Below are positions 3,707-24,990 of a stretch of 30,253 bases of DNA, piece by piece. The DNA is taken from contig CALGPD010000205.1 of NCBI GenBank assembly GCA_937960625.1, forward strand, positions 1 through 30,253. The letters are read 5' to 3'. Every line of letters starts with the position of its first letter. Positions within the stretch are counted from its first letter, which is position 1. This DNA comes from an uncultured Spirochaetia bacterium. Its GTDB lineage: Bacteria; Spirochaetota; CALGPD01. Under the pieces are notes generated by a model. It ran no database searches. It saw only the letters and a program-made list of their open reading frames with translations, and had not been told where the DNA came from. The position numbers were made by a program, and so were the translations under genes.

Positions 3707-3753
3707 TAAAATGCCTTGATAACGTTTAAAACACTATCAAGGCATTTTTTTCT
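3707..3753. terminator. Bidirectional rho-independent terminator downstream of the LRR-WGR gene
   Basis: Perfect 13-bp inverted repeat AAATGCCTTGATA ... TATCAAGGCATTT with a 13-nt loop (about 3708-3746). It is followed by a T-run on the + strand (3747-3752). On the - strand it is followed by TTTTATTATATT. Confidence 0.65.
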
Positions 3754-3812: not shown

Positions 3813-6389
3813 TTAAGCGTATCCTTTTTTCTTTTTAGATGAAACAAGTTTTTCAGCATCTTTTTCCGCTTCTTCTTCTGATGCAAATTCTTTTGTTTTA
3901 CTTTGTCCTTCTGAACCGATCTTTCCATATCTAACCGTATGAGTATTACCCGTTATAGTTATTTCCCAGAATTTATTAGATTTTTCATCTTTATACTCAA
4001 GATATATTTTTTCCCCATCCGATTCACTTTCCTCAGAATCTCCGTCTTCACCGTTTTCAGACATATCCTCTAAGTTTGCTAAAAAATCATCAAAACTATC
4101 ATGCAATTTTTCAGGATTTTCTCCAATTTCATGTTCAAATAAGTAAACGGGATTTAATGTATCCTGAGTGTCAACCGCTAAAAATATTTCAACCATAGTA
4201 TCAATTTCAACATCCTCATAAAAAAGATTAGGAATGGCTAAGATTTTAAAATAATAGTCAGGATTATTTATTAATTGATATAACTCACAACTTTCATAAT
4301 CTTCATCCAAATAATCATCCAGCCACGAATACTGTTCTACATCTTCGAGTAATTCTTCATGAGTACCGAATATTAATGGAAGATCTAAAAAAGTAATTTC
4401 CGTGTCCCGTTTCTCAGTTAATTTTTCATAATATCCGGATTCTATAAACTCGGCATAACTCATTTTCAACTCAACTCCTCCGGATAACCTCTCGTTAATT
4501 GCACTTTCAACTTCATTAATTTTTTTAACGGTCAATCCATCACAATATTCACAATTAAATTCTTCTAAGTTTGGCAATGATTTAAGAACGGATATGTCTT
4601 TCATGTTATCTAAGCTACGGAGTTCTATTTTTTCCAGTTTACTTAATTTAGATAATGACTCAGGTAATTTCTTTAAGTTATCAATATAGTGGATTGATAA
4701 TTCCCGCAAATTACTCAATTCTCCAACAATATCAATATTACCTACTTTCTTCAAGCTCTTTATATGTAATTTTTCCAGATTCTCAAGTGTACCAATATCT
4801 CCGGGTAATTCAGTTAGTTCATCTAAATTTTGAAGAGACAGCTCTTTTAGGTTTGGTAAACCTTTTATACCTGAAATTTGAGGTAAAACTTCTAAAAACT
4901 CAAAAGTTATTTTTTCTAAACCTTTAGCCATTTCAATTTCTACCGGTAATGTTTTTAAATAATCGGAACGGTGTATCTCAAGTTCTTTTAACTTTCCGAG
5001 TTTAACAATATTTGATAAATCCAAAGTTGTTTCGATACTGCCTACACTTAAACTTTCTAGTTTTGGTAAAACAGGCAAAGTAAAAGCAGGCTGATTAACG
5101 GCTAAACTTTTAAGATCAGCATAGTTTTCCAAATATTTATCCGAAGCTTCTATATCGTTAAAGACTGTAAGCTTTTTTAACTTTTTTAATTCTTTTGGTA
5201 ATTCCTTAAACGGACAATCTGCAATATATAGTTCTTCTAGATTAGTTAAAGAAGATAGAAAACTAATGTCTTCACTTTTTGCGCTAAAATCGAGTTTTCT
5301 TAAGTTCGTTAATGAACCCAATGTTTTAGGGAGTTTTTCTACTACGCTGTAAAAAACGAGTTCTTCAAGTTCAGGAAAGTCTTTAACTCCGGAAATATAA
5401 GACAAATTTTTGTTATATCCTACAACGAGTTTTTTTAATCCCTTTAATGTCGAAAAAGAATCATTTATGTTTTTTACATTACAACTTGATAAATCTAATT
5501 CTTCCAGCAATGGCAGTTCTTTTAATTCAGAAATGTCTTCCATTTTTTCATTTTTACTTAAATCCAGTTTTTTTAGATTTTTTAATTTTGAAATACTTTT
5601 AGGAGCAGATGTAAAATAAAAACCACCAATACGGAGTTCTACTAATCCTTCCAAATTACCAACATTTTCTAATACCTGATAGTTATCTCTATTTTTTACC
5701 GTATAACAATATATGGATAAAGATTTTAAGTTTTTAAGATTGAAAATATACTCAGGTATGCCTTCAATTTCATGTGAATCAGTCATATCCAACAATTCAA
5801 GATTATGCATATCCTTTAACACTTCCCAGTCCTTAACTCCAGTGTTATACGCAACGAATAATTTCCGTAATTTAGTAAGTTTCAATAATTCTTTTGGAAT
5901 TTTTTTTAGTTTATTATTACCAACGTATAGTTCTTCCAAATTGGTTAACTTTTTTAAACCCGTTATATTGGTTATCTTATTATCAGAAATACCTAAAATT
6001 TTAAGTTGGCTAAGGGCTAAAATTTCTTCAGGGACTTTTTTTAAGTTCAAATCTTCCAGACCTAAATCTTCCAAAGTGGTTAATTCCGTGAGTATTGAAA
6101 AGTCAGAGATTTCATTACCACCGATAAATAAAGTTTTAATATTTTTCAAACTTAATATTTCTTTGGGTATCTCCTTGATGTCCATTTCTTTTAAATAAAG
6201 TTCTTCAAGCTTCACAAGTTCTTTTAAAAAGGAAAAATCTTTAATATTACAATTCTTTGACAATCTTAAAGATTTTAAATTTGTAAACAATGATATCTCA
6301 TCAATGTTTTCAGCTGTTTCTGCATTAATGCTTTGAATTTCTTCTTTGCTATTCTTTAATAGAGCATCTTGATAGTTAAATTCTTTCAT
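3813..6389 (-). CDS. Large leucine-rich-repeat protein with acidic linker and C-terminal WGR domain
   Basis: 858 aa. There are more than 20 LRR units (LxxLxxLxLxxNxI: ...LKSLRLSKNCNIKDFSFLKELVKLEELYLKEMDIKEIP...). A non-repeat region (about aa 640-780) precedes a D/E-rich stretch. The C-terminal IYLEYKDEKSNKFWEITITGNTHTVRYGKIGSEGQSKTKEFASEEEAEKDAEKLVSSKKKKGYA matches the WGR consensus (FWEI...RYGRIG..GQ...F.S.eeA...KGY). An SD AGGGGAAGAAG precedes the ATG. Confidence 0.8.
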   Translation of the reverse strand: MKEFNYQDALLKNSKEEIQSINAETAENIDEISLFTNLKSLRLSKNCNIKDFSFLKELVKLEELYLKEMDIKEIPKEILSLKNIKTLFIGGNEISDFSILTELTTLEDLGLEDLNLKKVPEEILALSQLKILGISDNKITNITGLKKLTNLEELYVGNNKLKKIPKELLKLTKLRKLFVAYNTGVKDWEVLKDMHNLELLDMTDSHEIEGIPEYIFNLKNLKSLSIYCYTVKNRDNYQVLENVGNLEGLVELRIGGFYFTSAPKSISKLKNLKKLDLSKNEKMEDISELKELPLLEELDLSSCNVKNINDSFSTLKGLKKLVVGYNKNLSYISGVKDFPELEELVFYSVVEKLPKTLGSLTNLRKLDFSAKSEDISFLSSLTNLEELYIADCPFKELPKELKKLKKLTVFNDIEASDKYLENYADLKSLAVNQPAFTLPVLPKLESLSVGSIETTLDLSNIVKLGKLKELEIHRSDYLKTLPVEIEMAKGLEKITFEFLEVLPQISGIKGLPNLKELSLQNLDELTELPGDIGTLENLEKLHIKSLKKVGNIDIVGELSNLRELSIHYIDNLKKLPESLSKLSKLEKIELRSLDNMKDISVLKSLPNLEEFNCEYCDGLTVKKINEVESAINERLSGGVELKMSYAEFIESGYYEKLTEKRDTEITFLDLPLIFGTHEELLEDVEQYSWLDDYLDEDYESCELYQLINNPDYYFKILAIPNLFYEDVEIDTMVEIFLAVDTQDTLNPVYLFEHEIGENPEKLHDSFDDFLANLEDMSENGEDGDSEESESDGEKIYLEYKDEKSNKFWEITITGNTHTVRYGKIGSEGQSKTKEFASEEEAEKDAEKLVSSKKKKGYA

Positions 6390-6410
6390 CTTCTTCCCCT
6401 ATAATTAAAA

Positions 6411-6438
6411 TATATTCAGTAAAATATATTCAGTAAAA
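6411..6438. repeat. Perfect tandem duplication (2 x 14 bp, TATATTCAGTAAAA) in the leader/promoter region of the LRR-WGR gene
   Basis: Seen directly at 6411-6424 and 6425-6438. A partial third copy follows (TATAATTAAAA on the same strand upstream of the RBS). Confidence 0.75.
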
Positions 6439-6467
6439 TTTATCAGATAATTTGTAAATATTACTTT

Positions 6468-7379
6468 TTAAGTTGATTGTTTTCCACAAGCAAAATACTT
6501 TATCAAGGTTACTTTATTACCCGGAGGCTCATAAACAACTTCATCCATTGTTGCATATGTCATAATTATTCCTCTGCCGCTAATTCTAAGAAGGTCTCTT
6601 TTTTCAATATTATTTTTAATAGTTTCATAATCAAAACCTTTGCCTTGATCAATAATAACGTATTTAACCTTTTCCCTGTCATAAAATGCTTCTACTGTAA
6701 CAGTCCGGCTGCAGTAAGGTTCCTGCTTGCTTCTATTCTCAAGTTCAGACGCATATTTGTTACCTTTACTATATATTAATTCAGCTTTCTCAAGATCATT
6801 AATTTCAAGATTTCCATGTTCGATTGCATTTGTTATCATCTCAACAAGAGCAAGGTCTATACTAATAATTTCATCATCATCGCATTGCTGATTTATTATT
6901 AAATCTCTTGAAATTGTTGAGGCAAGGTCAGAGATTAAATTAATATCATTTGGTATCTTATAAACCTTGTGAGTAGAAACAAGGTAATAATCTATATCCC
7001 TTGTTCTTTGGAGAATGGCTTTCATTTTTAAAATTTCTTTAACACTGTTTGAAATTTCATTTTTATCAATAGGCTTTGTAAAAAAATTAAAGCTGCCGTA
7101 ATCAAAAGCATCAACAGTCTGAGAATAACTATGTTCATCAACAACGATAATTATTGAAGTATCCTTATTAAAGTTTTTTACTTTTCTGATAAATTCAATT
7201 CCGTTATCCATATTAAGATTAATATCAGTTATCAATACCGTATAAATATTGCTTTTTAAGAATTCAACTCCTTGTTGAATACTCGTTGCTTGATGCGGGT
7301 TATATTCTCTAAACAAGGATGTCAATTCGTTCATGAATTCTTGTTCTTCTGTAATTAGTAAAATTTTTTCTAAATTCAT
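6468..7379 (-). CDS. Receiver (REC) domain fused to GHKL/HATPase_c anti-sigma-factor-like serine kinase (RsbW/SpoIIAB/SiaB-like)
   Basis: N-terminal REC: ...TVLITDINLNMDNGIEF...IIIVVDE...FFTKPID. C-terminal N-box LALVEMITNAIEHGN, G1 VIIDQGKGFD, G2 RISGRGIIMTYATMDEV. The start is ambiguous: I chose ATG at 7379 rather than the TTG at 7388 used in the ORF track. Confidence 0.7.
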   Translation of the reverse strand: MNLEKILLITEEQEFMNELTSLFREYNPHQATSIQQGVEFLKSNIYTVLITDINLNMDNGIEFIRKVKNFNKDTSIIIVVDEHSYSQTVDAFDYGSFNFFTKPIDKNEISNSVKEILKMKAILQRTRDIDYYLVSTHKVYKIPNDINLISDLASTISRDLIINQQCDDDEIISIDLALVEMITNAIEHGNLEINDLEKAELIYSKGNKYASELENRSKQEPYCSRTVTVEAFYDREKVKYVIIDQGKGFDYETIKNNIEKRDLLRISGRGIIMTYATMDEVVYEPPGNKVTLIKYFACGKQST

Positions 7380-7397
7380 AAAAATCAACCGCTAAAT

Positions 7398-7778
7398 TTA
7401 TTTTGTTTTAAAAAACCAAAAAATCGGATTATCGGAAAAAAATATTTCCATATTCTTATTTATTGTATCTATAAATTTTTTAATTTTTTCTGCATAAGGA
7501 GATATAATTTTTTCAGGAAATACAAAAATTATATTTATAAATCTGTCTCTAACTAGTTTTTGAAATTCCTTCTGAATGTTTTCGCTTTTTACTATCCATT
7601 CTTTTATCGCATTCACTGTGTCATCATTAAAAGCTTGGCTCTTTTGCCTTGCATTATTTAAATAACTTTCAAATTCCTCTTTAAAACCTGACAATACCCC
7701 AAAAGTTTTTAAATAATTATCTCTTGTGCGGGATAGAATTTTAAACCATTTTTGTTCTTTCTTCTCAGTGTCTGCCAT
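7398..7778 (-). CDS. Small hypothetical protein (126 aa) between phosphatase and kinase; candidate partner-switch substrate
   Basis: The ORF is tightly packed between the REC-PP2C stop (7810) and the kinase start. An SD-like AGGTAG lies 5 nt upstream of the ATG. It has no recognisable STAS DSSG motif, so it is called by position only. Confidence 0.5.
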   Translation of the reverse strand: MADTEKKEQKWFKILSRTRDNYLKTFGVLSGFKEEFESYLNNARQKSQAFNDDTVNAIKEWIVKSENIQKEFQKLVRDRFINIIFVFPEKIISPYAEKIKKFIDTINKNMEIFFSDNPIFWFFKTK

Positions 7779-7809
7779 TTCTACCTGATTATAATTAATT
7801 ATCTTATAT

Positions 7810-8943
7810 CTATTTAATTTTAATAGCTATAAGATTTACATCATCACTAAATTCATTATCACCGATAAAATCTTTGAGTTCCTGTATTATTTTTTCATTT
7901 ATTTCCTTAGAACTCTTTTCACAATTGTCTTTAAATACTGCTAAAAGTTTTTCATCCCCAAATATCTGAAATGAAGAATCTTCGGCTTCAAATGCTCCGT
8001 CTGTATATAATAATATTTGGTCACCGGGTTTTAAATCCTGCTCTTTAGTTTCAAACACAGCGTTTTCAAAAAGCCCCATTACATAACCCTTGGTCTTAAG
8101 AAAATCAACATTACCGTTTCTGCATAAATATCCTGCCGGATGCCCGGCTGATGCATAAATGATTTTATTCTCTTCTAAATCCAAAATCGTATAAACAGCA
8201 GTTACATAAGTGAATTTTCCGCCTAAAATATTTATCAACTGAAGATTCATCTCGGATAAAAGTTCGGATGGAGTTTTATTTTGTTCAATAAAATTATCAA
8301 GCAAAGTTTTTAAAATCATTGTGATTAAAGCTGCCTGCATTCCATGGCCTACAACATCAGCAACAAAAACACCGAGTTTTTTCTCACTAAAAGGCATGAA
8401 ATAATAAAAATCACCGCCAACCATAAAACACGGTATATATCTGAAATCTATATCAAAACCTTTTGTATCAGGAACATCAGAAGGAAGAATTTTCTCCTGA
8501 ACTTTACTTGCCAGACGGATTTCTTTTTGAAATGCAATATTTTTTACTGCCAATTCATCTGTATAATCTTTTAAGCGTAGAAGAGACCGCACACGTGCAG
8601 TTAATTCAATGTCATTTATAGGCTTGGATAGAAAGTCATCACAACCCGCCTCAAGGCCGTTTACTTTATCTTCTGTGCTGGAAAGTGAAGTAATTAATAC
8701 AACCGGAATGTTCCTCGTTATATCATTATTTTTAATTTTTCTGCAAAGTTCAAAACCGTCAAGTTCAGGCATGATTACATCTGAAATTATCATATCCGGT
8801 TTTTGTTTTTTAACTAATTCCAAAGCTTCTAAACCGTTATACGCACAGGAAACCTCATAACCTTCTTTGCCTAGACGCATTCTTAATAGGTCAACATTTA
8901 CTTTTATGTCATCTACAACGAGTATTTTATGTTTCTTTTCCAT
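7810..8943 (-). CDS. Response-regulator receiver fused to PP2C (SpoIIE/RsbU-type) serine phosphatase
   Basis: Canonical REC (KILVVDD...MIISDVIMPELDG...VVLITS...SKPI). PP2C motifs follow: FYYFMP...LGVFVADVVGHGMQAALITM...YASAGHP...ILLYTDG. I chose the ATG at 8943; the ORF track begins at a TTG at 8964. No SD precedes either start. Confidence 0.8.
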   Translation of the reverse strand: MEKKHKILVVDDIKVNVDLLRMRLGKEGYEVSCAYNGLEALELVKKQKPDMIISDVIMPELDGFELCRKIKNNDITRNIPVVLITSLSSTEDKVNGLEAGCDDFLSKPINDIELTARVRSLLRLKDYTDELAVKNIAFQKEIRLASKVQEKILPSDVPDTKGFDIDFRYIPCFMVGGDFYYFMPFSEKKLGVFVADVVGHGMQAALITMILKTLLDNFIEQNKTPSELLSEMNLQLINILGGKFTYVTAVYTILDLEENKIIYASAGHPAGYLCRNGNVDFLKTKGYVMGLFENAVFETKEQDLKPGDQILLYTDGAFEAEDSSFQIFGDEKLLAVFKDNCEKSSKEINEKIIQELKDFIGDNEFSDDVNLIAIKIK

Positions 8944-9001
8944 TATATATAATAACAAACGCAAATTATTAAAATTGTCAAGAATATTTATTAAAATAGC
9001 G

Positions 9002-10468
9002 CTATTTTAATAAATTAACTATTTCATGGCCTACTTTTGTTATATCTCCCGCGCCGAGAGTTATAACAATATCGCCTTTTTGAATTTGATTCATTATTTT
9101 ATCAGGTACATCTGCAAGATCGTCAACACACTCTAATTCAACACTTTCTTCTTTTAATAAATCATATATTAACGTTGTAGTTACTCCCGGGATTGGCTTT
9201 TCCCGTGCCGGATAAATCGGAGTTAAGAAAACCTTATCAGCAAGTTTAAGGCTTTGGGCAAATTCTTCAAAATGCATTTGCGTTCTAGAGTATAAATGTG
9301 GTTGAAAAATTGCAACTAAACGGCGGGAATCATCATTTTTTGAAATCTGACGCGCTGCTTGCAGAGTTGCCTGTATTTCATTAGGATGATGCGCGTAATC
9401 ATCAATGATTAATATTTCATCTTTATCATAGAGTATTTGAAAACGCCTTTCGGAATTTACAAATTTACTAAGAGCAGATTTTATTTTATCAATTGAAACT
9501 CCGACCGCAACCGAAGTCGCAATTACGGAAAGGGCGTTCATAACATTGTGTTTTCCCGGAATCCTGAGAGTGAATTCTCCAAGTTCTTCGCCGAATGATT
9601 TCACCTGAAACTTTGTATTCATTCCATCAAACTTAAGTCCGTAGGCGCTGACATCCGCATTTTCAGAAAAACCAAAAGTTATAACCTTTTTAGATAAATC
9701 ATGCAATATTTCTTTTACGTTATCATCGTCAATATTAGCAACGCAAAAACTATAGAATGGAACTTTATTTAAAAAATGCCTGAATGTCTGTTTTAGTTCA
9801 TCAAAATTATTATAGGATTCCATATGATCTTTATCAACATTTAACAAAACGCTTATTTCAGGTAAAAAATATTCTATTGAATTATACGCTTCACATGCTT
9901 CAAAAACCAGATAATCTCCGTGCCCTAAATGTGCATTTGAACCAAGGGAATCCAACACTCCGCCGATTAACATTGTGGGGTCAAAACCGCCTTCTTTTAA
10001 AACAAGGCTTAACATACCCGTTGTTGTGGTCTTGCCGTGTGTTCCGGCAATACCAATACCTTTCTTCATTCTTACTAATTCGTTCAACATCTCAGCTCTA
10101 GGTATAACGGGAATTTTAGTCTGTTTTGCTTCACGTATTTCAGGATTAGTCATCGGCACCGCTGCGCTAAAAACAACTACAGAACAGCCATGGACGTTTT
10201 CTTTTTCATGCTCATAGTATACTCTAGCTCCGAGTTTTTCTAATCGTTTAGTAATCGGGCTTTTCTTTTTATCAGAACCGGAAACTTTATAACCCAGGTT
10301 TAATAGTACCTCAGCAATTCCACTCATGCCAATACCGCCGATACCAATAAAGTGAATAGTACCTAACTGTTCATTCATACCGTGGTTTTTATCCGGACTT
10401 TGTGAAACACCCATGCCGAGCCCTATCCTTTCTGATTTATCAAAAAAAGGTGTAAAAATATTTTTCAT
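9002..10468 (-). CDS. murC: UDP-N-acetylmuramate--L-alanine ligase
   Basis: IHFIGIGGIGMSGIAEVLLNLGYKVSGSD, GTHGKTTTT, and Mur ligase middle and C-terminal domains. The start is uncertain: candidates are TTG 10483, ATG 10468, ATG 10414 (preceded by AAAGGATAGGG) and ATG 10378. Confidence 0.9.
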   Translation of the reverse strand: MKNIFTPFFDKSERIGLGMGVSQSPDKNHGMNEQLGTIHFIGIGGIGMSGIAEVLLNLGYKVSGSDKKKSPITKRLEKLGARVYYEHEKENVHGCSVVVFSAAVPMTNPEIREAKQTKIPVIPRAEMLNELVRMKKGIGIAGTHGKTTTTGMLSLVLKEGGFDPTMLIGGVLDSLGSNAHLGHGDYLVFEACEAYNSIEYFLPEISVLLNVDKDHMESYNNFDELKQTFRHFLNKVPFYSFCVANIDDDNVKEILHDLSKKVITFGFSENADVSAYGLKFDGMNTKFQVKSFGEELGEFTLRIPGKHNVMNALSVIATSVAVGVSIDKIKSALSKFVNSERRFQILYDKDEILIIDDYAHHPNEIQATLQAARQISKNDDSRRLVAIFQPHLYSRTQMHFEEFAQSLKLADKVFLTPIYPAREKPIPGVTTTLIYDLLKEESVELECVDDLADVPDKIMNQIQKGDIVITLGAGDITKVGHEIVNLLK

Positions 10469-10724
10469 AATAATTATTCTCAATTCTTTTGCTATATATA
10501 ATTTAAAAAACAGTTTAAAATTTTCTAGTTTTTTTTTAAAAATGTTCCTATTTACCGTAAAAAAAACGTAATATTTCTTGCATAAGTAATGTAAAATTTT
10601 GTTATCAACTAAGTATTAGTTAAAATTAATATAATAAATATAATTTTGTTAAGGTAAATCAATTCCTGCCGATTTTATATTTGTTATAGTTTTTTTAATA
10701 AAAATAGATATTTAGGAATTTTCA

Positions 10725-11438
10725 ATGAACTTATTGCTTATAAGCGTTGATAGTAACATTAAAAATATATTAGTCTCGAGTTTACTTCCAAAAGGTTATC
10801 CCGTTTTTGATACGGATTATGATAGAGATAGTATTACTAACATCATTAAAAAGAAAGAGATTAACGTAGTTTTCATGGACGTGGACAAAGAAGGCGGGCT
10901 AATTGAACACCTTGATCTAATTAAAATGATAAGAAGTATGAATATTGCCCTTATCGCGTATACAGAGAACGCTGCTGAAAGTGAAGTAAAGATTCTTATT
11001 GAACACGGTGTAACTGCATATATTGAAAAAACTGAAAAAATTGCACATGATATAAAAAGATTAATTGAAGTTATATTTAAAAACGTTCCGCAAAAAGAAA
11101 AACGCAAAGCATTACGCGTTAAAATTAACGAACAAGACGAAGCCACTGTAAACTTCAGCGTTCCTAATTCAAGCAAAGTTATAAAAGGTTTTGTTATAGA
11201 AATAAGTTATCTAGGCCTGTTTTTTAAAGTTGATTATTTATATGATACATCGGGTTTAAGGCCCGGCGATGTAATATCAAGGTTAACTTTAATGATAAAC
11301 TCAAAAAGAGCCATAACCGATGTGCAAATAGTTATGATTAAAGGCGATTTTGTTGGCGCTAAATTTCTAAACCACGATGACGCTTTAAAAAACCTTCTCG
11401 TTAGATTTATCCACGAAAAAATGACAGAAACAATTTAA
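10725..11438 (+). CDS. Receiver-like domain fused to PilZ (c-di-GMP-binding) domain
   Basis: The N-terminal flavodoxin-like REC has D at FMDVD and T/K positions, but lacks the N-terminal DD pair. The C-terminal half carries PilZ RxxxR (KRKALRVK) and, about 28 residues later, a DxSxxG-like EISYLG (E in place of D/N). Beta-barrel-like GDVISRLTLMI...IVMIKGDFVGAKF follows. An AGGA RBS is present. Confidence 0.55.
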   Translation: MNLLLISVDSNIKNILVSSLLPKGYPVFDTDYDRDSITNIIKKKEINVVFMDVDKEGGLIEHLDLIKMIRSMNIALIAYTENAAESEVKILIEHGVTAYIEKTEKIAHDIKRLIEVIFKNVPQKEKRKALRVKINEQDEATVNFSVPNSSKVIKGFVIEISYLGLFFKVDYLYDTSGLRPGDVISRLTLMINSKRAITDVQIVMIKGDFVGAKFLNHDDALKNLLVRFIHEKMTETI

Positions 11439-15974: not shown

Positions 15975-17348
15975 TTAGAAATGAAAAATTCCGCCTGCAT
16001 GCCAGATAAATCCGCTCTCCAATGCCATGCCGAAAACGTATCCGTTGGTTTTATAACCGATTCGTCCGGTTAAACGGAATAGATGAGATATCATAACGGT
16101 AATATCCAGATAGCCTGCGATTCCGAAATATAAATCGGTTTTCGCGGGATTTGAAACATAGTCATGAACTATTTCAGGCTGCATAAACACATGTAACGCC
16201 CCGCCGAAAAATAAATTTTGAACAATTTCAATACCCTTGAACTTTACACCGGCTCCCCACGCGGAAACGAACTCTCCCGTTGTCATACGGAAATATGGGA
16301 TAAATAAAAGCCTTTTATCAAACTTTATAAATATATCCACATACCATTCAACTCCATAAGGAGCAAGAGATATTCTCCCGGAAGGCAATATATCGGCTTT
16401 ACCCACGGGTATCATTATAGTTTTCATAATCTTTTTACCCGTTATTTGAGAATAAAAATGGGATGCCGCGGCAAAAAACAACAGCGGGTCAGCTAATATC
16501 AGCCATTTATAATTCTGAAGTTTATCAAGAGTGAGTTTGTATTTCGATGATGTTGAATATCCGTATTTCTGATTTACTAAATTAATGTAAGCCGCAATAT
16601 CGTTTCCGTCTGATGAATTAATATCTTCGGTGTAATGAATGTAATAAAACAAATCAAGCCTGGTTAATAGATACGTTGTAAAATCATGCGGCGCAATGTA
16701 TCCGTCCTGCACCCATCTCATGGCTACAATATGCGACATTAACATATTGGCTTCATAACCCCCGCTGATAATCATTAAATTATGGTCTGTGCTGGATACA
16801 CCGTGATATTCCATATATCCTCCGCCACCCCCAAAAGGAAACGGCCAGTTAATTTTAACTTTGTCAACAGTTCCACCGGCTTCTCTTACTCTAACAGCAT
16901 GGCCGAAGAACTCGTGATTAAAAGTAACAGCAGCATGGATAATTGGTAAATCAACAATTATTGATTTGGCAAAATAAGTTATAACCTGAATTAAAGGGCT
17001 TGAATTTTTATGCATAAAACTAATGGGATAATTCGTTCCTTTTACAAAAGCCATTGCGGCAGATTCCATGGTTATTGCAGCAGGATAAGTACTGTAGATA
17101 GAATAGTTAAACACAAACATAAAGTCCCTTTTAGGAAATCCGTCAAAACTCGTTTCTTTTTCGCCTCTTCCTATATCGTCAACATCGGGTATCATTTGTA
17201 TTTTAGTACGTTCTTTATATCCGCCTTCAGTGCGTACTTGTGAACGGTCACCCATTAACGGGTTATCATTATCTTCGCCCGCAAATAAAAGGTTTATAGA
17301 AAAAATTGTTATTAATAAAGCAGTAATAAATAACTTTGAATATTTCAC
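15975..17348 (-). CDS. Secreted / probable outer-membrane protein of unknown function (signal peptide, C-terminal aromatic residue)
   Basis: N-terminal signal peptide MKYSKLFITALLITIFSINLLFAGED. An internal FNHEFFGHAVR (HExxxH) and a glycine cluster PFGGGGGY are present. The C-terminus ...GGIFHF ends in Phe, as in beta-barrel OMPs. It sits 15 nt upstream of nadC, co-oriented. Confidence 0.55.
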   Translation of the reverse strand: MKYSKLFITALLITIFSINLLFAGEDNDNPLMGDRSQVRTEGGYKERTKIQMIPDVDDIGRGEKETSFDGFPKRDFMFVFNYSIYSTYPAAITMESAAMAFVKGTNYPISFMHKNSSPLIQVITYFAKSIIVDLPIIHAAVTFNHEFFGHAVRVREAGGTVDKVKINWPFPFGGGGGYMEYHGVSSTDHNLMIISGGYEANMLMSHIVAMRWVQDGYIAPHDFTTYLLTRLDLFYYIHYTEDINSSDGNDIAAYINLVNQKYGYSTSSKYKLTLDKLQNYKWLILADPLLFFAAASHFYSQITGKKIMKTIMIPVGKADILPSGRISLAPYGVEWYVDIFIKFDKRLLFIPYFRMTTGEFVSAWGAGVKFKGIEIVQNLFFGGALHVFMQPEIVHDYVSNPAKTDLYFGIAGYLDITVMISHLFRLTGRIGYKTNGYVFGMALESGFIWHAGGIFHF

Positions 17349-20129: not shown

Positions 20130-21179
20130 ATGAATATTTGTTTTATAATAAATGATTGGAAAACAGTGGAAACTAAAACAGAAACCACTATCAGGCTAAT
20201 ACATGAAAGCGCAATAAGAAATCATAATGTAGGAATTCTTTACACACAAAATCTAACTATTAGAAATAACGTTGCTTATGGTTTTGTTAAAACCATAAAA
20301 AAAATGGATAAGGTTCCTGACAATATAGAATCTTTTTATAAAAAAGCTGAGTTAATTGAAAAGATGTTACCCATGAACGGTTTTGATGCTATTTTCATCC
20401 GTAAAAATCCGCCTGTGGATAACATTATGCTTAATTTTCTTGATTCAATAAGAGATGAGACATTCTTAATCAATGATATTCACGGTATCAGAAAAGCAAA
20501 TAATAAATTATACACAGCGCTTTTTCACGACCCAAAAAATGAATTTCTTCCTGTTACCCATGTTTCCAAAAACATTAAATATCTCAAAAAAACTATTGAA
20601 GAATCAAATAATGAAAAAATGATATTAAAACCTCTAAATGCTTACGGCGGCAGCGGGGTTATCGTACTTGAAAAAAACGCAAAACACAATATCAACTCCC
20701 TTCTTGAATTTTACATTGAAGGCAAAGAACAAAAAAATTACGTTATAGTTCAAGAATATGTTGAAGGCGCGGAAAAAGGAGATATACGCGTTCTAATGTT
20801 AAACGGTCAGCCCGTAGGAGCGTATAAACGGGTACCCGCGGCTGACGATATAAGGGCAAATATTCATGCAGGCGGAAAGGCTGAAAAACATAAACTCACG
20901 GAAAAAGAAAAAATGATTTGTAAAAAAATAGGCCCGCAGCTTGTTTCTGACGGGATATTCTTTGCCGGTATAGATATTATCAATAATAAACTCATTGAAG
21001 TTAACGTATTATCTCCGGGCGGTATTGCAAACGTAAACAGGCTGAATAAAACCAAAGTCCAAAAAAAAGTAATTGATTTCATTGAAGACATGATTGCAAA
21101 GAGAAATGATATTATTAATCAGCGCCAGGCAGCAATCGAAAGAAAGAAATTATTTAATTCGGAGTTTAATAGTGATTAA
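20130..21179 (+). CDS. ATP-grasp amidoligase of the glutathione synthetase (GshB)/RimK clade
   Basis: A strong RBS AGGAGGAAAAAATG is present. The protein is colinear with E. coli GshB in both the N-terminal substrate domain (FIRKNPP, NNKLYTALF) and the ATP-grasp domain (ILKPLNAYGGSGV, GDIRVLMLNGQPVGAYKRVPAADDIRANIHAGGKAEKHKLTEKEKMICKKIGPQLVSDGIFFAGIDII..EVNVLSPGG). Confidence 0.85.
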   Translation: MNICFIINDWKTVETKTETTIRLIHESAIRNHNVGILYTQNLTIRNNVAYGFVKTIKKMDKVPDNIESFYKKAELIEKMLPMNGFDAIFIRKNPPVDNIMLNFLDSIRDETFLINDIHGIRKANNKLYTALFHDPKNEFLPVTHVSKNIKYLKKTIEESNNEKMILKPLNAYGGSGVIVLEKNAKHNINSLLEFYIEGKEQKNYVIVQEYVEGAEKGDIRVLMLNGQPVGAYKRVPAADDIRANIHAGGKAEKHKLTEKEKMICKKIGPQLVSDGIFFAGIDIINNKLIEVNVLSPGGIANVNRLNKTKVQKKVIDFIEDMIAKRNDIINQRQAAIERKKLFNSEFNSD

Positions 21180-21216
21180 ACTTTCTATAGAGGAAATAGT
21201 TGAAAAAATCAATAAC

Positions 21217-23163
21217 ATGGAGGCTTTTTCAGCAATCTCGGGCAATGATGAATTTAGTATTACTATAGAAAAATACGTTCCGTTTGTATGCGCGGCCATA
21301 CATAACGGCGGCAATTTTCTTAAACAGGTTTCAGATAAACTGCATATTTCCAAGTTTGAAAGATGGAACGAAGAAGATCCATTAACAGGGTCTTTTATAT
21401 TACCTTTTCCAATTAGAATCATAGTTTATGATTCACGCTATGAATATGATTTAAACAGAAATCCGGAAAATTGTATATATGAATACGCATGGAATAAACA
21501 GGTTTATGAAACGCCTTTAACCCAAGAGGAAAAAAAAATCTTTTTAACAAGGCATGAAAACTTTTATAAAGTTATTAACGCGTTAATATCAAAGCTTGAA
21601 AAATTATTCAAAGCATGTGTCGTATTCGATATTCATTCATACAATCATCAAAGGTTTGGAGAAAAGCGGGACCTTCCTTTGTTTAATCTTGGAACGGAAA
21701 AAGTTAATACAAAAAAATTCGGCAAATATATCAACTATATTACTGAACAACTTTTAAAAATAAAAATTGAAGGTGTAGTAAATAGAGTCGCGATAAATGA
21801 AGTCTTTTTCGGCAGAGGATATTTTCTAGAATATATAACGAAAAATTTTAAAAACACTCTTGTATTGGCTACAGAAATTAAAAAAGTGTATGTGGATGAA
21901 AATACCGGAGATGAGTTTCCAGGGATTATTGAAGATTTAAAAAACGGGCTCAAAGAAACCGTTTTAAATACCTCAAACTTTTTCATTAATGATACTACAA
22001 CGTTAAACGTTAAACAAAAATATAATCTATTAGGAGAAACTTTTACAGACGGGATAAATTTAGTTGATAATCAATTACACAAACTTGTTTCCAAAATCGA
22101 TTTCTTAACCTATATTAATCCGGTAAATATTGAAACGGAAAAATCTAAATTCATAAAATCAAAATATAAAAAAACTCCAGTATTCAGATATAAACACCTT
22201 ACTAAGGATATTTATTTTCTGAAAAAAAACTTATATTCAATCCCTATAGACAAAATAAAAGACGCAACCATAAAATCGTTTTATACAGAAGTGATTGAAA
22301 AACAAAGTATTGTATCTGATTTGTTATTAAATAGAGGAAATCACACATTTTTATATAATTCCCTTAGAAATTATGGTGAACCGTCTAAAACAGATATTGA
22401 AAATGCGCGGTTTTTAATTTCCGCTGTTGATAACGCTAACAACGCGAAAACATTTACCGCGGACGAGGCATTTACTATTTTCAAGGAACACGTTGACAGG
22501 TTAAACATTAAGTGCAAAGTTGAAGTCAGCTCAAAAATTGTGTCAAAGGTTATGATGGTTAAAAATACGGTGCTAAGAATACGTAAAAACAGCGTGTTTA
22601 CTGAAAACGAAATCATAGCGCTTGTAAATCATGAAATCGGCGTACATTTATTTACAACGCTAAATTCTAAAAGAAACCGGTTAAAAGTATTGCGTTTCTC
22701 TTTGCCCGGCGCAACGGAAACACAGGAAGGCCTTGCAATTTTAAGTGAAATGTTAAGCGGAAATATGACTGTAAAAAGATTGAAGGAACTGGCTTACAGA
22801 ACCATTCTAATTAAAAAAATGCTGAACGGAATCTCTTTTAACGAAGCTTTTCTATACCTAAAAGAAGAACACGGTTTTGAGGATGACAACGCGTTTTACC
22901 TTACAACTCGAGTATTCAGAAGCGGAGGGCTTACAAAAGACCGGCTGTATTTAAGCGGATTTAAGAAAATGTATGATTATTATAAACAAGGCAGGGACCT
23001 ATCAATATTATATACGGGAAAAACTTCCGAAAGATATAGGGACATTTTATTTGAATTACAGGCTAGAGGGTTAATCGATAAACCCAAATACATTAATCCA
23101 TGCTTTAGCAAACCGGAAAAAATAGACCCTGTAATTGAGTTTATAGCGGATTCGCTTAAATAA
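21217..23163 (+). CDS. Fusion protein: N-formylglutamate amidohydrolase (FGase)-like domain + DUF1704 / MATCAP-like metallopeptidase domain (QEGLA motif)
   Basis: N-terminal about 280 aa: VPFVCAAIHNGGNF...VVFDIHSYNHQRF is FGase-like. C-terminal about 380 aa carries VNHEIGVHLFTT (HExxxH), PGATETQEGLAILSE (QEGLA) and SGGLTKDRLYLSGF. The ORF is open from 21094, overlapping the ATP-grasp gene by 86 nt. The first ATG after the upstream stop is 21217. Confidence 0.75.
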   Translation: MEAFSAISGNDEFSITIEKYVPFVCAAIHNGGNFLKQVSDKLHISKFERWNEEDPLTGSFILPFPIRIIVYDSRYEYDLNRNPENCIYEYAWNKQVYETPLTQEEKKIFLTRHENFYKVINALISKLEKLFKACVVFDIHSYNHQRFGEKRDLPLFNLGTEKVNTKKFGKYINYITEQLLKIKIEGVVNRVAINEVFFGRGYFLEYITKNFKNTLVLATEIKKVYVDENTGDEFPGIIEDLKNGLKETVLNTSNFFINDTTTLNVKQKYNLLGETFTDGINLVDNQLHKLVSKIDFLTYINPVNIETEKSKFIKSKYKKTPVFRYKHLTKDIYFLKKNLYSIPIDKIKDATIKSFYTEVIEKQSIVSDLLLNRGNHTFLYNSLRNYGEPSKTDIENARFLISAVDNANNAKTFTADEAFTIFKEHVDRLNIKCKVEVSSKIVSKVMMVKNTVLRIRKNSVFTENEIIALVNHEIGVHLFTTLNSKRNRLKVLRFSLPGATETQEGLAILSEMLSGNMTVKRLKELAYRTILIKKMLNGISFNEAFLYLKEEHGFEDDNAFYLTTRVFRSGGLTKDRLYLSGFKKMYDYYKQGRDLSILYTGKTSERYRDILFELQARGLIDKPKYINPCFSKPEKIDPVIEFIADSLK

Positions 23164-23206: not shown

Positions 23207-24990
23207 CTAATTCTCTAAAGGCAAGGCAAACCAAAAATCACTGCCCTTGCTTGGTGAACTCTCAACTCCTATACTTCCATTATGAAATTCCACTATTTTT
23301 ATGCAAATGGATAATCCAAGCCAGGAGCCTTTTTCCCGTTTCAATCCTTTTATTCTTGCTTTTGTAAAAGGCTCAAATATTAATTTATGGTTTTGTTCTT
23401 CAATTCCAATTCCGTTATCTACAACGTGGGTAATTATCTCGTTATTTTGCAGATAACTTTGTATTTTAATTTCACAGTGTTCAGGCGTAAATTTAATAGC
23501 ATTGGTAATAAAATTGCTCAATACGCTGTAAACTTTCTCTTTGTCTATTTCAATAAGTATCAACAATTTCTCCGATAACAAGGTTTATATTTTTCGTTTT
23601 GCAGATAATATTAAACGTTGTAACCGCATCGGAAATTAAATCCGATAATTTTACGCTATTTACATCGAGTTTAACTTTGCCTGAATCAAACAAAGCAATA
23701 TTGAGAAAATCATTTGCCATTTTTAAAATAGTCTGCGAGTTTTTATTTATAATCTCAAGATAGGATTTAATATTTTCAGGAAGATTATTTTTTAAAAGTA
23801 TTTTCGATGTGCCCAAAATAGAACCAAAACCGTTTTTATGTCATGGTTTACCATGGCAACGAAGTTATCTTTAATATTGGAAAGCTTTCTTAATTCCGTT
23901 ATATCCCTGCCCACAATCTGGATTTCCTTAATATTACCCGTTTCATCGAATATTCCACGGGCAACCCAATGAATCCAGCGCAAACCCTTATCAGGCAGAA
24001 ATAATTTATAAGTATTTGAAGAGCTATTATGGCTTGCTAATATTTTGCTAATTCTTTCTTTGATTGTAGCCAAATCAGAATCATCTATAAAACCATATTC
24101 AAAAAGGCTGTTTAGATTCATTTTAAGGAGTTGTTGTTCATTAATCCCCGCGCATTCACAAAATACGTTATTTACATAAACAATATTTAAATAAGGGTCA
24201 AATCTTACTATCAGGTCGTTCATTTCAGATACAACGCTTTTATACCGCTACTCGCTTTGTTTTAGCTGCTCTTCGAGTTTTTTCTTCTCTGTAATATCAC
24301 GGGCGATTATTATACTATAAGGATTAGAATTTAAATAGGCAGCACGCATTTTTATATCCCATAAAAACTTTTTACCTGATTTTGATTGATACCAATATTC
24401 AAATCTAACCCTTCCGTCATTCTTGACAAACTCATCAAATACCTGTTTCAATTTTTTATGAGCATCTTCATCAGGGAAATATGAGATATCATTCATAGAC
24501 ATACCAATAAGTTCATCTTTAGAATATTCTAATTTCTTACAAGCTTCTTCATTTGCATCATAAATTATGCCTCTAGCAGAAATTATGATTATATCATTAC
24601 GATGGTTGAAAAAGCTTCATAATTCTGAGACCTTAATTTATCATATCTTATATCAAGCAATGAAAAAATTACAACTATTTTCAAATTATCGTTTTAGTTA
24701 TTAAAAATATTCAAACTATAAGATACATCTATAATTTCATTGGTTTTATTGATTAGACATGATTTCCAACTTGCTAAATTTTTCTTTTCTGCTTTTTTAA
24801 ATCTGATAATTTGATTTTCAATTGATAATTGGCAAATTGATACTTTTGCTTCTAAATCTGAAATCGATTTTCCATACAAATCATTTAAATCATATTTAAA
24901 AGTCTCTAAAAAAAGTTTATTCGCGTATTCAATATTGTAATCTTTATCAAGCTACAATAATAAAACGGGTGAGTTTTCAACTATTTCTTT
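23207..24990 (-). pseudogene. Decayed multi-PAS sensor histidine kinase (HisKA + HATPase_c), disrupted by 2 in-frame TAG codons and at least 3 frameshifts
   Basis: Collinear minus-strand fragments run from PAS (INLVVDYKEIVENSPVLLL*LDKDYNIEYAN...) through PAS (DIIIISARGIIYDANEEACKKLEYSKDELIGMSMNDISYF...), a linker KLEEQLKQSE*RYKSVVSEMNDLIV, a third PAS (GLRWIHWVARGIFDETGNIKEIQIVGRDITE), H-box FVAMVNHDIKT, and the C-terminal part of the HisKA domain. The HATPase N/G boxes follow (NFITNAIKFT, VVDNGIGIE, GSWLGLSI). In-frame TAGs are at 24248-24250 and 24953-24955. Frame changes occur near 23565-23580, 23800-23812 (in an A5 run) and about 24560-24600. Confidence 0.75.

What the first reader, a model, noticed from the sequence alone, without database searches (positions are those of the whole stretch)
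6468..8964. Three-gene partner-switch-like operon where both the PP2C phosphatase and the GHKL serine-kinase carry their own receiver domains, with a non-STAS small protein between them
Seen in sequence: three co-oriented genes with 9-31 nt spacers. The first is REC+PP2C (DVVGHG motif). The second is a 126-aa protein without a STAS DSSG signature. The third is REC+HATPase (N-box EMITNAIEHGN, G-boxes). Established knowledge: RsbU/RsbV/RsbW-type and SiaA/SiaB/SiaC-type partner-switching modules pair a PP2C phosphatase and an RsbW-like kinase acting on a small antagonist protein. The SiaABC precedent shows the antagonist need not be a STAS domain. Inference: phosphorylation of the middle protein is controlled antagonistically by two separate phosphorelay inputs, one REC on each enzyme. 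No sigma factor or GGDEF output is encoded adjacently, so the output partner is unknown. The 858-aa LRR-WGR protein 78 bp downstream in the same orientation is the only candidate in cis.
Basis: partly seen in the sequence, partly recalled or inferred. Interest (0 to 1): 0.65.

Follow-up and report, generated by a model that had tools for sequence, protein, structure and literature searches.

The report
Receiver-gated phosphatase/kinase pair with phasin-like insert
An uncultured spirochaete carries a conserved operon pairing a receiver-controlled protein phosphatase with a receiver-linked anti-sigma-type kinase (a relative of Leptospira LvrC), with a small helical phasin-like gene of unknown role between them instead of the usual STAS switch protein; it is a new variant of a known signalling design, and the small protein's role as substrate is unproven.

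Summary
On the minus strand lie REC+PP2C (7810-8964), a 126-aa gene (7398-7778), REC+HATPase_c_2 (6468-7388) and LRR+WGR (3813-6389), with strong Pfam scores.

- **Kinase:** it is a full-length homologue of Leptospira LvrC (PDB 9QIH), a Rec-regulated RsbW-like anti-sigma factor published in 2026.
- **Phosphatase:** it is RssB/RsbY-like and keeps all metal-binding motifs.
- **Conservation:** the two enzymes are adjacent downstream of murC in about eight related metagenomic lineages of uncultured Spirochaetia.
- **Small protein:** it is a predicted all-helical, distant phasin-like (PF05597) protein, not STAS or SiaC-like. Its own subfamily occurs only between these two enzymes, in six lineages. 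One subclade lost it and kept both enzymes intact, so it cannot be their only substrate.
- **More distant kinase relatives:** some sit next to canonical STAS genes with the phospho-serine. One is a REC-kinase-REC-PP2C fusion beside a STAS gene.
- **Kinase REC domain:** its acidic pocket is degenerate, and the domain is absent in one subclade, so two phosphorelay inputs are doubtful.
- **LRR-WGR gene:** it is not conserved next to the module.

Verdict: a new variant of a known kind, of moderate interest.

The parts
7810..8964 (-). REC + PP2C (SpoIIE-family) serine/threonine phosphatase, RssB/RsbY-like response regulator. The probable start is ATG 8943 (377 aa).
   Evidence: Pfam Response_reg 6.7e-30 and SpoIIE 1e-48. 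The best solved relative is P. aeruginosa RssB 3EQ2, E 2.2e-42. The REC residues DD/D/T/K are canonical. The metal motifs GGDF, DVVGHG, YTDG and DD are invariant in 5 orthologues.
7398..7778 (-). 126-aa predicted all-helical protein, a distant member of a phasin-like (PF05597) family. It belongs to an operon-embedded subfamily with a W-x-F-K C-terminus and invariant T25 and T54.
   Evidence: phmmer found 8 relatives of 118-152 aa. 23 of 29 family members hit PF05597 at E<=0.1, best 1.9e-8. The AF2 models are all-helix but low confidence, pLDDT about 52. hhalign against STAS gives probability 0.35%. All subfamily members lie between PP2C and kinase genes.
6468..7388 (-). REC + HATPase_c_2 (RsbW-like Bergerat fold) protein, an LvrC homologue. 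The probable start is ATG 7379 (303 aa).
   Evidence: Pfam HATPase_c_2 4.3e-18 and Response_reg 4e-15. PDB 9QIH (LvrC, deposited as 'SenB') matches at E 1.9e-25 over residues 15-297, and the family profile matches it at 3e-65. The N, G1 and G2 boxes are invariant in 16 relatives. REC D12/D13 are T/E and T87 is V.
9002..10483 (-). murC (UDP-N-acetylmuramate-L-alanine ligase), the conserved upstream neighbour of the module.
   Evidence: Mur_ligase genes sit immediately upstream of the REC-PP2C gene in L001, L003 and L099.
3813..6389 (-). LRR + WGR protein, a downstream neighbour in this genome only. It is not part of the conserved module.
   Evidence: Pfam LRR_4 2.3e-46 and WGR 2.4e-19. The downstream genes elsewhere are Peptidase_M50B (L001) or a convergent GAF-HD-GYP gene (L003/4, L099, L101).
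6406..6443 (.). 14-nt tandem repeat (2.7 copies, TAAAATATATTCAG) in the 78-nt spacer between the kinase and LRR-WGR genes.
   Evidence: Tandem Repeats Finder, score 69, 95% matches. Its function is unknown.
3708..3748 (-). Terminator-like hairpin (19-bp stem) after the LRR-WGR gene. It is the only one on this strand between murC and the end of LRR-WGR.
   Evidence: Consensus scan. It is compatible with one long transcription unit but is not proof of one.
10725..11438 (+). Degenerate REC + PilZ protein, divergent from murC. The arrangement is conserved in the closest relative.
   Evidence: Pfam Response_reg 2.7e-5 and PilZ 1.8e-4. A 237-aa protein with the same two Pfam domains (PilZ 2.2e-4, REC 3.8e-4) lies at the same position in L001.

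Best explanation
The conserved core is a two-enzyme partner-switch module.

- **Phosphatase.** An RssB/RsbY-type phosphatase. Asp-phosphorylation of its canonical receiver domain is expected to switch on the PP2C domain through the helical linker.
- **Kinase.** An LvrC-type protein: a receiver domain fused to an RsbW-like anti-sigma/serine-kinase domain with an intact ATP site.
- **Target.** Together they most likely set the phosphorylation state of an antagonist that is not encoded in this operon. By analogy with more distant relatives of the kinase, this is a STAS protein elsewhere in the genome. Through it, the kinase domain would hold or release a sigma factor or other target (inferred).
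- **Small protein.** The 126-aa phasin-like helical protein is an ancestral, clade-specific third component. It sits in the rsbV position and probably binds one of the two enzymes, as a modulator/adaptor or an additional substrate (inferred). It is dispensable, because one subclade lost it.
- **Kinase receiver.** This domain is degenerate in this clade and may act as a dimerisation or pseudo-receiver domain rather than a second phosphorelay input (inferred).
- **LRR-WGR gene.** It is an unrelated neighbour.

What is shown: the domain identities, motif conservation, synteny, and the gene's presence and absence across lineages. What is inferred: all binding and phosphorylation steps.
For: - **Domains and motifs:**
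- **Kinase homology to LvrC:** full-length match to PDB 9QIH. [quoted passage not shown]
- **REC-PP2C control:** linker-mediated control of REC-PP2C phosphatases is described in PMC12143880.
- **Synteny:** the enzyme pair is adjacent in window, L001, L003/4, L010, L013, L098 and L099.
- **Loss of the small gene:** it is absent without any remnant in L003/4 and L013. Their kinases form one cluster (66-71% identity) and keep all catalytic residues.
- **STAS next to distant relatives:** STAS genes with the conserved phospho-serine lie next to kinase relatives in L044, L053, L060, L084, L063 and L082.
- **Fusions:** L063 is REC-HATPase_c_2-REC-SpoIIE, and L081 is REC-HATPase_c_2-SpoIIE.
- **Small-protein subfamily:** it is found only inside this operon. 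Wider family members stand alone in unrelated contexts.
Against: - No STAS or sigma-factor gene could be shown for this genome. Only 30 kb of it was available.
- Only 7 of 80 distant kinase loci had a detectable STAS gene within 6 kb.
- Three features fit a dedicated substrate as well as an accessory partner: the small gene's position (phosphatase-x-kinase, as in rsbU-rsbV-rsbW), its retention across deep divergence (kinase domains down to 45% identity), and its invariant T25 and T54.
- No structural or interaction evidence exists for any binding step. The AF2 models of the small protein are low confidence.
Confidence: 0.45

Rival explanations
1. The 126-aa helical protein is the dedicated non-STAS antagonist. 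The REC-HATPase_c_2 kinase phosphorylates it on a conserved threonine and the REC-PP2C phosphatase dephosphorylates it. Its phosphorylation state decides which partner it binds.
For: - The gene order phosphatase-x-kinase, with short spacers, mirrors rsbU-rsbV-rsbW.
- Every member of the W-x-F-K subfamily lies between these two enzymes, in six lineages.
- T25 and T54 are invariant in that subfamily.
- No STAS gene lies in cis in any of these loci.
Against: - One subclade lost the gene yet kept both enzymes intact.
- The same positions are S/T in 3 of the 4 stand-alone phasin-like relatives in the alignment. The three stand-alone members whose contexts were examined have no kinase next to them. 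The conservation may therefore be structural.
- All characterised substrates of RsbW-type kinases have a STAS-like alpha/beta fold, SiaC included (PMC7647112). This protein is predicted all-helical.
Confidence: 0.22
2. An RsbT/RsbU-like or anti-adaptor-like circuit with no phospho-substrate in the module. The HATPase_c_2 protein binds and regulates the PP2C protein directly, as RsbT activates RsbU. The small helical protein acts like the Ira anti-adaptors of RssB, binding the REC-PP2C protein and blocking it.
For: - The enzyme pair persists without any small gene or STAS gene in L003/4 and L013.
- RsbT activates RsbU by direct binding, and RssB is controlled by small anti-adaptor proteins (PMC12143880; PMC6482189).
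- The PP2C protein's best solved relative is RssB of P. aeruginosa.
- Fusions of the two enzymes exist.
Against: - The kinase keeps every ATP-binding residue, which argues for catalysis rather than binding only.
- The PP2C protein has a REC domain, not the RsbU N-terminal domain that RsbT recognises.
- There is no sequence similarity between the small protein and IraP, IraD or IraM. This was not tested directly.
Confidence: 0.13
3. The small gene is a phasin-like structural protein coating hydrophobic inclusions or membranes. It merely shares a transcription unit with the signalling genes and has no functional link to them.
For: - The wider family matches Pfam Phasin, and its other members stand alone in unrelated contexts.
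- One subclade lost the gene.
Against: - The subfamily keeps exactly this position across lineages whose kinase domains are only 45-50% identical, and no member was found anywhere else.
- The subfamily has features of its own: the C-terminal W-x-F-K and 16 invariant residues.
- No PHA-synthesis genes are in the window.
Confidence: 0.12

Closest known systems
LvrC (LIC11110) of Leptospira interrogans, PDB 9QIH: a Rec-regulated RsbW-like anti-sigma factor downstream of the LvrA-LvrB phosphorelay (PMC13269768)
   Same: Same two-domain architecture, REC followed by a Bergerat-fold HATPase_c_2 domain. The full-length sequence match is E 1.9e-25, and 3e-65 with the family profile. N box, G1 and G2 are conserved.
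   Different: - LvrC has a canonical REC domain. Here D12/D13 are T/E and the switch Thr is V.
- This gene is paired in an operon with a REC-PP2C phosphatase and a small helical protein. The paper passages read here (abstract, results section and matched discussion text) mention no such neighbours for LvrC.
- No Rec-controlled histidine kinase lies nearby in the window.
RssB-RssC of Pseudomonas aeruginosa, and RsbY of Bacillus cereus (REC-PP2C phosphatases acting on a STAS antagonist)
   Same: REC + active PP2C architecture. The best solved relative is P. aeruginosa RssB 3EQ2, E 2.2e-42, with an NCBIfam RssB_Pseudo hit at 1.9e-45, below that model's cutoff. A small gene follows the phosphatase gene.
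   Different: The following gene here is a helical phasin-like protein, not an RsbV-like STAS protein. It is followed by a kinase with its own REC domain.
HsbR-HsbA (P. aeruginosa), CrsR-CrsA (Shewanella) and SypE-SypA (Vibrio fischeri): response regulators that combine REC, PP2C and RsbW-like kinase domains in one protein
   Same: Receiver control of an opposing phosphatase/kinase pair of the same two domain families (PMC6482189; PMC10120452). Fused versions of this window's two proteins exist in other phyla (L063, L081, L087).
   Different: Here the activities are split over two genes, each with its own REC domain. The adjacent STAS substrate (HsbA, CrsA or SypA) is missing.
SiaA-SiaB-SiaC-SiaD of P. 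aeruginosa
   Same: A PP2C phosphatase and an RsbW-like kinase act on a small protein that sequence searches do not recognise as STAS.
Phasin family PF05597 (PHA-granule-associated amphipathic helical proteins)
   Same: 23 of 29 relatives of the 126-aa protein match PF05597, one above the gathering score. The size is similar and the predicted structure is all-helical.
   Different: The window protein itself does not reach the model at E<=1. Its subfamily is embedded in a signalling operon, and no PHA genes are nearby.

Membership tests
RsbU/RsbV/RsbW-type partner-switching module | PP2C (SpoIIE-family) phosphatase with the metal-binding aspartates | tested here: met
   SpoIIE 1e-48. GGDF, DVVGHG, YTDG and DD are invariant in 5 orthologues.
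RsbU/RsbV/RsbW-type partner-switching module | HATPase_c_2 serine kinase/anti-sigma domain with N, G1 and G2 boxes | tested here: met
   HATPase_c_2 4.3e-18. E183, N187, H191-N193, D247/G249/G251 and G271-G273 are invariant in 16 relatives.
RsbU/RsbV/RsbW-type partner-switching module | STAS-domain antagonist with a phosphorylatable serine, encoded with the enzymes | tested here: not met
   No STAS hit for the 126-aa protein at E<=1. hhalign of its family against a STAS alignment gives probability 0.35%. No STAS ORF in the window or in the close loci.
RsbU/RsbV/RsbW-type partner-switching module | Target sigma factor or other output protein bound by the kinase or the antagonist | not testable with these tools
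   No sigma-factor or GGDEF gene among the window's ORFs of 100 aa or more. The rest of the genome was not available.
LvrC-type REC + Bergerat-fold anti-sigma response regulator | Full-length homology, REC followed by an RsbW-like domain | tested here: met
   9QIH_A E 1.9e-25 over residues 15-297 of 306. The family profile scores 3e-65 over 4-299.
LvrC-type REC + Bergerat-fold anti-sigma response regulator | Canonical receiver residues (acidic pair, phospho-Asp, switch Thr, Lys) | tested here: inconclusive
   The Asp and Lys are kept. The acidic pair is T-E here (I-E or I-K in close relatives), and the switch Thr is V (T, S or A in relatives). The REC domain is absent in L099/L101.
LvrC-type REC + Bergerat-fold anti-sigma response regulator | Phosphotransfer from a cognate histidine kinase, and sequestration of a sigma factor | not testable with these tools
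   Needs biochemistry. Even for LvrC the sigma factor is unknown (PMC13269768).
HsbR/CrsR/SypE-type tripartite response regulators | REC, PP2C and kinase domains in one polypeptide with an adjacent STAS substrate | tested here: not met
   There are two separate genes, each with its own REC, and no STAS gene. Fused relatives exist elsewhere (L063, L081, L087).
SiaABC-type module | DUF1987 (SiaC) substrate and an adjacent diguanylate cyclase | tested here: not met
   No DUF1987 hit at E<=1 for the 126-aa protein, and none among the top families of 29 relatives. No GGDEF gene in the window.
Phasin (PF05597), for the 126-aa protein | Match to the PF05597 profile | tested here: inconclusive
   The window protein shows no hit at E<=1. 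Among its homologues, 23 of 29 hit at E<=0.1, and P0062 scores 34.7 bits against a cutoff of 28.8. P0062 is linked to the window protein at phmmer E 3.9e-7.
Phasin (PF05597), for the 126-aa protein | Association with PHA granules or PHA-synthesis genes | not tested
   No PHA genes among the window's ORFs. Granule binding needs experiment.

The most novel reading that the evidence does not exclude
The phasin-like helical protein is a true replacement for the STAS antagonist. It would be the first all-helical, non-STAS-fold substrate of an RsbW-type kinase and PP2C phosphatase pair, phosphorylated on T25 or T54. It would couple a receiver-gated partner switch to a hydrophobic surface (lipid or PHA inclusion, or membrane) or to a new protein target, rather than to a sigma factor.
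Probability: 0.2. Interest if true: 0.75.

Novelty: new variant of a known kind. Interest (0 to 1): 0.45.

Why it matters
Partner switches are a main route by which bacteria turn signals into global responses. Every characterised one uses a STAS-fold antagonist.

This module offers a conserved natural case for two questions: whether a REC-PP2C and an LvrC-like REC-anti-sigma kinase work as a pair, and what a non-STAS helical protein does at the antagonist's position.

It also gives LvrC a family context. LvrC is a virulence regulator of Leptospira whose partners are still unknown. At least 583 relatives were found among species-representative genomes. Some lie next to STAS or PP2C genes or are fused to PP2C, which suggests where to look for LvrC's missing partners.

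If the small protein turns out to be only an accessory, the finding is a modest extension of known designs.

Tried and rejected
1. **Word-indexed homologue search with the 126-aa protein.** It found only the protein itself. The exhaustive phmmer search was needed to find relatives.
2. **AlphaFold2 of the small protein, alone and with a 9-sequence alignment.** Both gave pLDDT of about 52, all helix. That is too poor for a fold search, so none was run.
3. **Profile search of the small family against PDB sequences.** Only chance-level helical matches appeared.
4. **Metagenome scan with the subfamily alignment.** It returned a single short contig that adds no new context.
5. **Promoter scan.** It gave 39 sites against 35 expected, which is uninformative in this AT-rich DNA.
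6. **Literature search for 'SenB'.** This led to the unrelated selenoneine glycosyltransferase. The PDB entry was traced through its accession to the LvrB/LvrC paper.
7. **LRR-WGR as the output partner.** Rejected because it is absent from all related loci.
8. **Remnants of the small gene in the L003 and L013 spacers.** None was found (tblastn E>2).
9. **Search for papers linking phasins to partner switches.** None appeared among the 15 top-ranked of 402 matching papers.
Full report
**1. Observation**

The minus strand of the window carries, in order:
- murC (9002-10483);
- a 384-aa ORF (7810-8964);
- a 126-aa ORF (7398-7778);
- a 306-aa ORF (6468-7388);
- an 858-aa ORF (3813-6389).

Pfam gives these assignments:
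- First protein: Response_reg 6.7e-30 plus SpoIIE/PP2C 1e-48.
- Third protein: Response_reg 4e-15 plus HATPase_c_2 4.3e-18.
- Fourth protein: LRR families plus WGR 2.4e-19.
- 126-aa protein: nothing significant.

The spacers are 31, 9 and 78 nt. The 9 nt becomes 18 nt if the start is ATG 7379. The likely true starts are ATG 8943 and ATG 7379, because the orthologue in L001 begins MEKNHKILVVDD and the database protein P0002 has 303 aa. The domain scores are far beyond chance.

**2. The two enzymes**

*Phosphatase.*
- The four PP2C metal-binding motifs (GGDF, DVVGHG, YTDG, DD) are invariant in five orthologues.
- Its best solved relative is P. aeruginosa RssB (3EQ2, E 2.2e-42).

*Kinase.*
- It keeps the N box (E183, N187, H191-G192-N193), G1 (D247, G249, G251, F252) and G2 (G271-R272-G273). 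These are invariant across 16 relatives down to 24% identity.
- It is a full-length homologue of PDB 9QIH. The single-sequence match is E 1.9e-25 over residues 15-297, and the family profile scores 3e-65.
- 9QIH was deposited as 'SenB'. It is LvrC (LIC11110) of Leptospira interrogans.
- LvrC is a Rec domain joined to a Bergerat-fold, RsbW-like anti-sigma domain. It is phosphorylated by the histidine kinase LvrB, and its sigma target is still unknown (PMC13269768).
- The REC+HATPase_c_2 architecture therefore has a published prototype.

*Kinase receiver domain.* This domain is atypical in the window's clade:
- The acidic pair aligned with CheY D12/D13 is T-E here, and I-E or I-K in the closest relatives.
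- The switch Thr is V here, and T, S or A in relatives.
- The phospho-Asp and the Lys are kept.
- In one subclade (L099, L101) the kinase has no REC domain at all.

**3. The 126-aa protein**

- The word-indexed search found only the protein itself.
- Exhaustive phmmer found eight real relatives of 118-152 aa, with E from 2e-27 to 2e-5, plus one spurious repeat protein.
- A profile search widened this to 28 proteins. Several carry precomputed PF05597 (Phasin) hits or the JGI name 'polyhydroxyalkanoate synthesis regulator phasin'.
- Scanned individually, 23 of 29 members match PF05597 at E<=0.1. The best is 1.9e-8, and P0062 scores 34.7 bits against a cutoff of 28.8.
- The window protein itself does not reach the model.
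- Both AlphaFold2 models are all-helical but of low confidence (pLDDT 51-53).
- A profile-profile comparison with a STAS alignment gives probability 0.35%.
- No DUF1987 or DUF4325 hit appears, and no solved relative exists.

The protein is therefore a distant phasin-like helical protein, not STAS or SiaC-like.

**4. Conservation of the module**

| Locus | Arrangement |
|---|---|
| L001/L018 (uncultured Spirochaetia MAG; kinase 68% identical) | murC, REC-PP2C, 123 aa, REC-kinase |
| L010-L012 | PP2C, 127 aa, start of a REC gene |
| L098 | REC-PP2C, 126 aa, next gene |
| L099/L100 | murC, REC-PP2C, 124 aa, kinase without REC |
| L101 | last 69 aa of PP2C only, frameshifted small gene, kinase without REC |
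| L003/L004 | murC, REC-PP2C, 131-bp spacer, REC-kinase |
| L013 | PP2C, 55-bp spacer, REC-kinase |

- No remnant of the small gene is left in the L003/L004 or L013 spacers.
- Kinase-domain identities define three groups. Window and L001 share 78%. L003, P0005 and L013 share 66-71%. L099 and L101 share 70%, and are 45-51% identical to the rest.
- The lineages without the small gene fall in one group. A single loss is therefore the simplest history.
- That group keeps every catalytic residue of both enzymes.
- The five aligned members of the operon-embedded subfamily share 16 invariant residues, including T25, T54 and a C-terminal W-x-F-K. The degraded L101 copy makes a sixth lineage.
- In the wider family the two Thr positions are S/T in eight of nine sequences.
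- The three more distant phasin-like relatives whose contexts were examined stand alone in unrelated contexts.

**5. The wider kinase family**

- A scan of species-representative genomes with the motif N[AS][IV]EHGNLE found at least 583 relatives. They lie in Planctomycetota, Thermodesulfobacteriota, Riflebacteria, Bacteroidales, Acidobacteriota, Sumerlaeota, Leptospirales and other groups.
- Among the best 80 loci, a home-made STAS profile found STAS genes directly adjacent in L044, L053, L060, L084, L063 and L082, and within 4 kb in L071.
- In all seven, the serine aligned with SpoIIAA S58 is conserved.
- L063 encodes a single REC-HATPase_c_2-REC-SpoIIE protein next to a STAS gene. This is a fusion of the window's two proteins.
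- L081 encodes REC-HATPase_c_2-SpoIIE.
- L087 has a hybrid histidine kinase, then REC-HATPase_c_2, then an HsbR-like REC-SpoIIE-HATPase_c_2 protein.
- L082 has FHA-GAF-SpoIIE, the kinase and a STAS gene.
- L014/L015 place the kinase after Hpt and a hybrid kinase.
- Most loci show no partner in cis.

**6. Neighbours in the window**

- No STAS, sigma-factor or GGDEF gene occurs in the 30-kb window.
- The LRR-WGR gene is replaced elsewhere by Peptidase_M50B (L001) or by a convergent GAF-HD-GYP gene (L003/4, L099, L101). It is not a conserved partner.
- The only terminator-like hairpin on this strand lies after LRR-WGR.

**7. Mechanism**

*Shown:*
- A conserved adjacent pair of a receiver-gated PP2C phosphatase and an LvrC-like RsbW-type kinase, both with intact catalytic motifs.
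- A small phasin-like gene that is ancestral to the module in this clade and specific to it.
- One subclade that lost the small gene, and one that lost the kinase's REC domain.

*Inferred:*
- The pair works as a partner switch on a target that is not the small protein alone, because the pair survives its loss.
- By analogy with distant relatives, that target is most likely a STAS protein encoded elsewhere, together with a sigma factor or other partner of the anti-sigma domain.
- The small protein most likely binds one of the enzymes, as a modulator or an additional substrate.
- The phosphatase REC is the credible phosphorelay input. The kinase REC may be a pseudo-receiver or a dimerisation domain.

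I give this composite model 0.45. The rivals score as follows:
- a direct RsbT/RsbU-like or anti-adaptor-like circuit, 0.13;
- a functionally unrelated phasin-like passenger, 0.12.

**8. Comparison and novelty**

Each part has precedent:
- REC-PP2C in RssB, RsbY and HenR.
- REC-RsbW-like in LvrC.
- Receiver-controlled phosphatase/kinase in HsbR, CrsR and SypE (PMC6482189, PMC10120452, PMC12143880, PMC13269768).

What differs:
- The activities are split over two genes, each with its own REC domain.
- The STAS gene is absent.
- A helical phasin-like gene sits in its place.

I rate this a new variant of a known kind. It is of moderate interest unless the small protein proves to be a true substrate.

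**9. Limits**

- Only 30 kb of the genome was available.
- The STAS survey used an improvised profile.
- The gene calls in the 80 loci were a greedy ORF heuristic.
- The small-protein model is of low confidence.
- The taxonomic assignment (uncultured Spirochaetia) rests on the record title of the closest syntenic contig.

Noticed in passing
window 23207-24879 (- strand): A PAS-PAS-HisKA-HATPase_c histidine kinase appears split over at least four consecutive ORFs (24248-24502, 23792-24223, 23550-23816, 23207-23581). It is either a frameshifted pseudogene or an assembly error.
   Followed up: partly
window 6406-6443: A 14-nt tandem repeat (TAAAATATATTCAG, 2.7 copies) fills much of the 78-nt spacer between the kinase gene and the LRR-WGR gene. 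It might be an operator or promoter element for the latter.
   Followed up: no
window 10725-11438 (+); L001 1776-2489; L003 3891-5294, L099 3362-5008, L101 10533-11519: Genes related to c-di-GMP signalling flank the module repeatedly. A degenerate REC-PilZ protein lies divergent from murC in the window and in L001. A GAF-HD-GYP gene lies convergent with the kinase in three other lineages. This may hint at the pathway's output, or may be plain synteny.
   Followed up: partly
L063 5842-8046 and 8020-8367; L081 5983-7683; L087 3699-8670: Natural fusions of the window's two enzymes occur in other phyla: REC-HATPase_c_2-REC-SpoIIE next to a STAS gene (a SAR324 MAG), and REC-HATPase_c_2-SpoIIE (Acidobacteria). 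A third locus has a hybrid kinase, then REC-HATPase_c_2, then REC-SpoIIE-HATPase_c_2.
   Followed up: partly
L101 9234-9842: In one long-read metagenome contig, only the last 69 codons of the PP2C gene remain. The small gene is frameshifted and the REC-less kinase is intact. CheA on the same contig is also fragmented, so sequencing errors are likely.
   Followed up: partly
L005 3866-5423; L001 914-1771: A stand-alone phasin-like relative (P0078) in a Spirochaetota MAG lies divergent from a PF03618 Kinase-PPPase gene. A gene of the same family lies about 3 kb upstream of the module in L001. This may be a trace of older synteny.
   Followed up: no
window 20130-23163 (+): A glutathione-synthetase-like ATP-grasp gene is followed by, and overlaps, a 689-aa protein that combines an N-formylglutamate amidohydrolase domain with a MATCAP (tyrosine-carboxypeptidase-like) domain. 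This is an unusual fusion and was not examined further.
   Followed up: no
window 15975-17348 (-) and 25092-26120 (-): Two sizeable ORFs (457 aa and 342 aa) have no Pfam family at E<=0.001.
   Followed up: no
Genome-contig loci L019, L023, L025, L027, L030, L031, L055, L079, L090, L091: In many Thermodesulfobacteriota and Pseudomonadota MAGs the LvrC-like gene sits in a fixed trio. A gene of about 190 aa comes first (phosphoribosyltransferase-like in L030, the one checked). The REC-HATPase_c_2 gene follows. A gene of about 406 aa comes last, overlapping the kinase gene by 4 nt in most loci (cofactor-independent phosphoglycerate-mutase-like in L030). No partner-switch genes are adjacent.
   Followed up: partly
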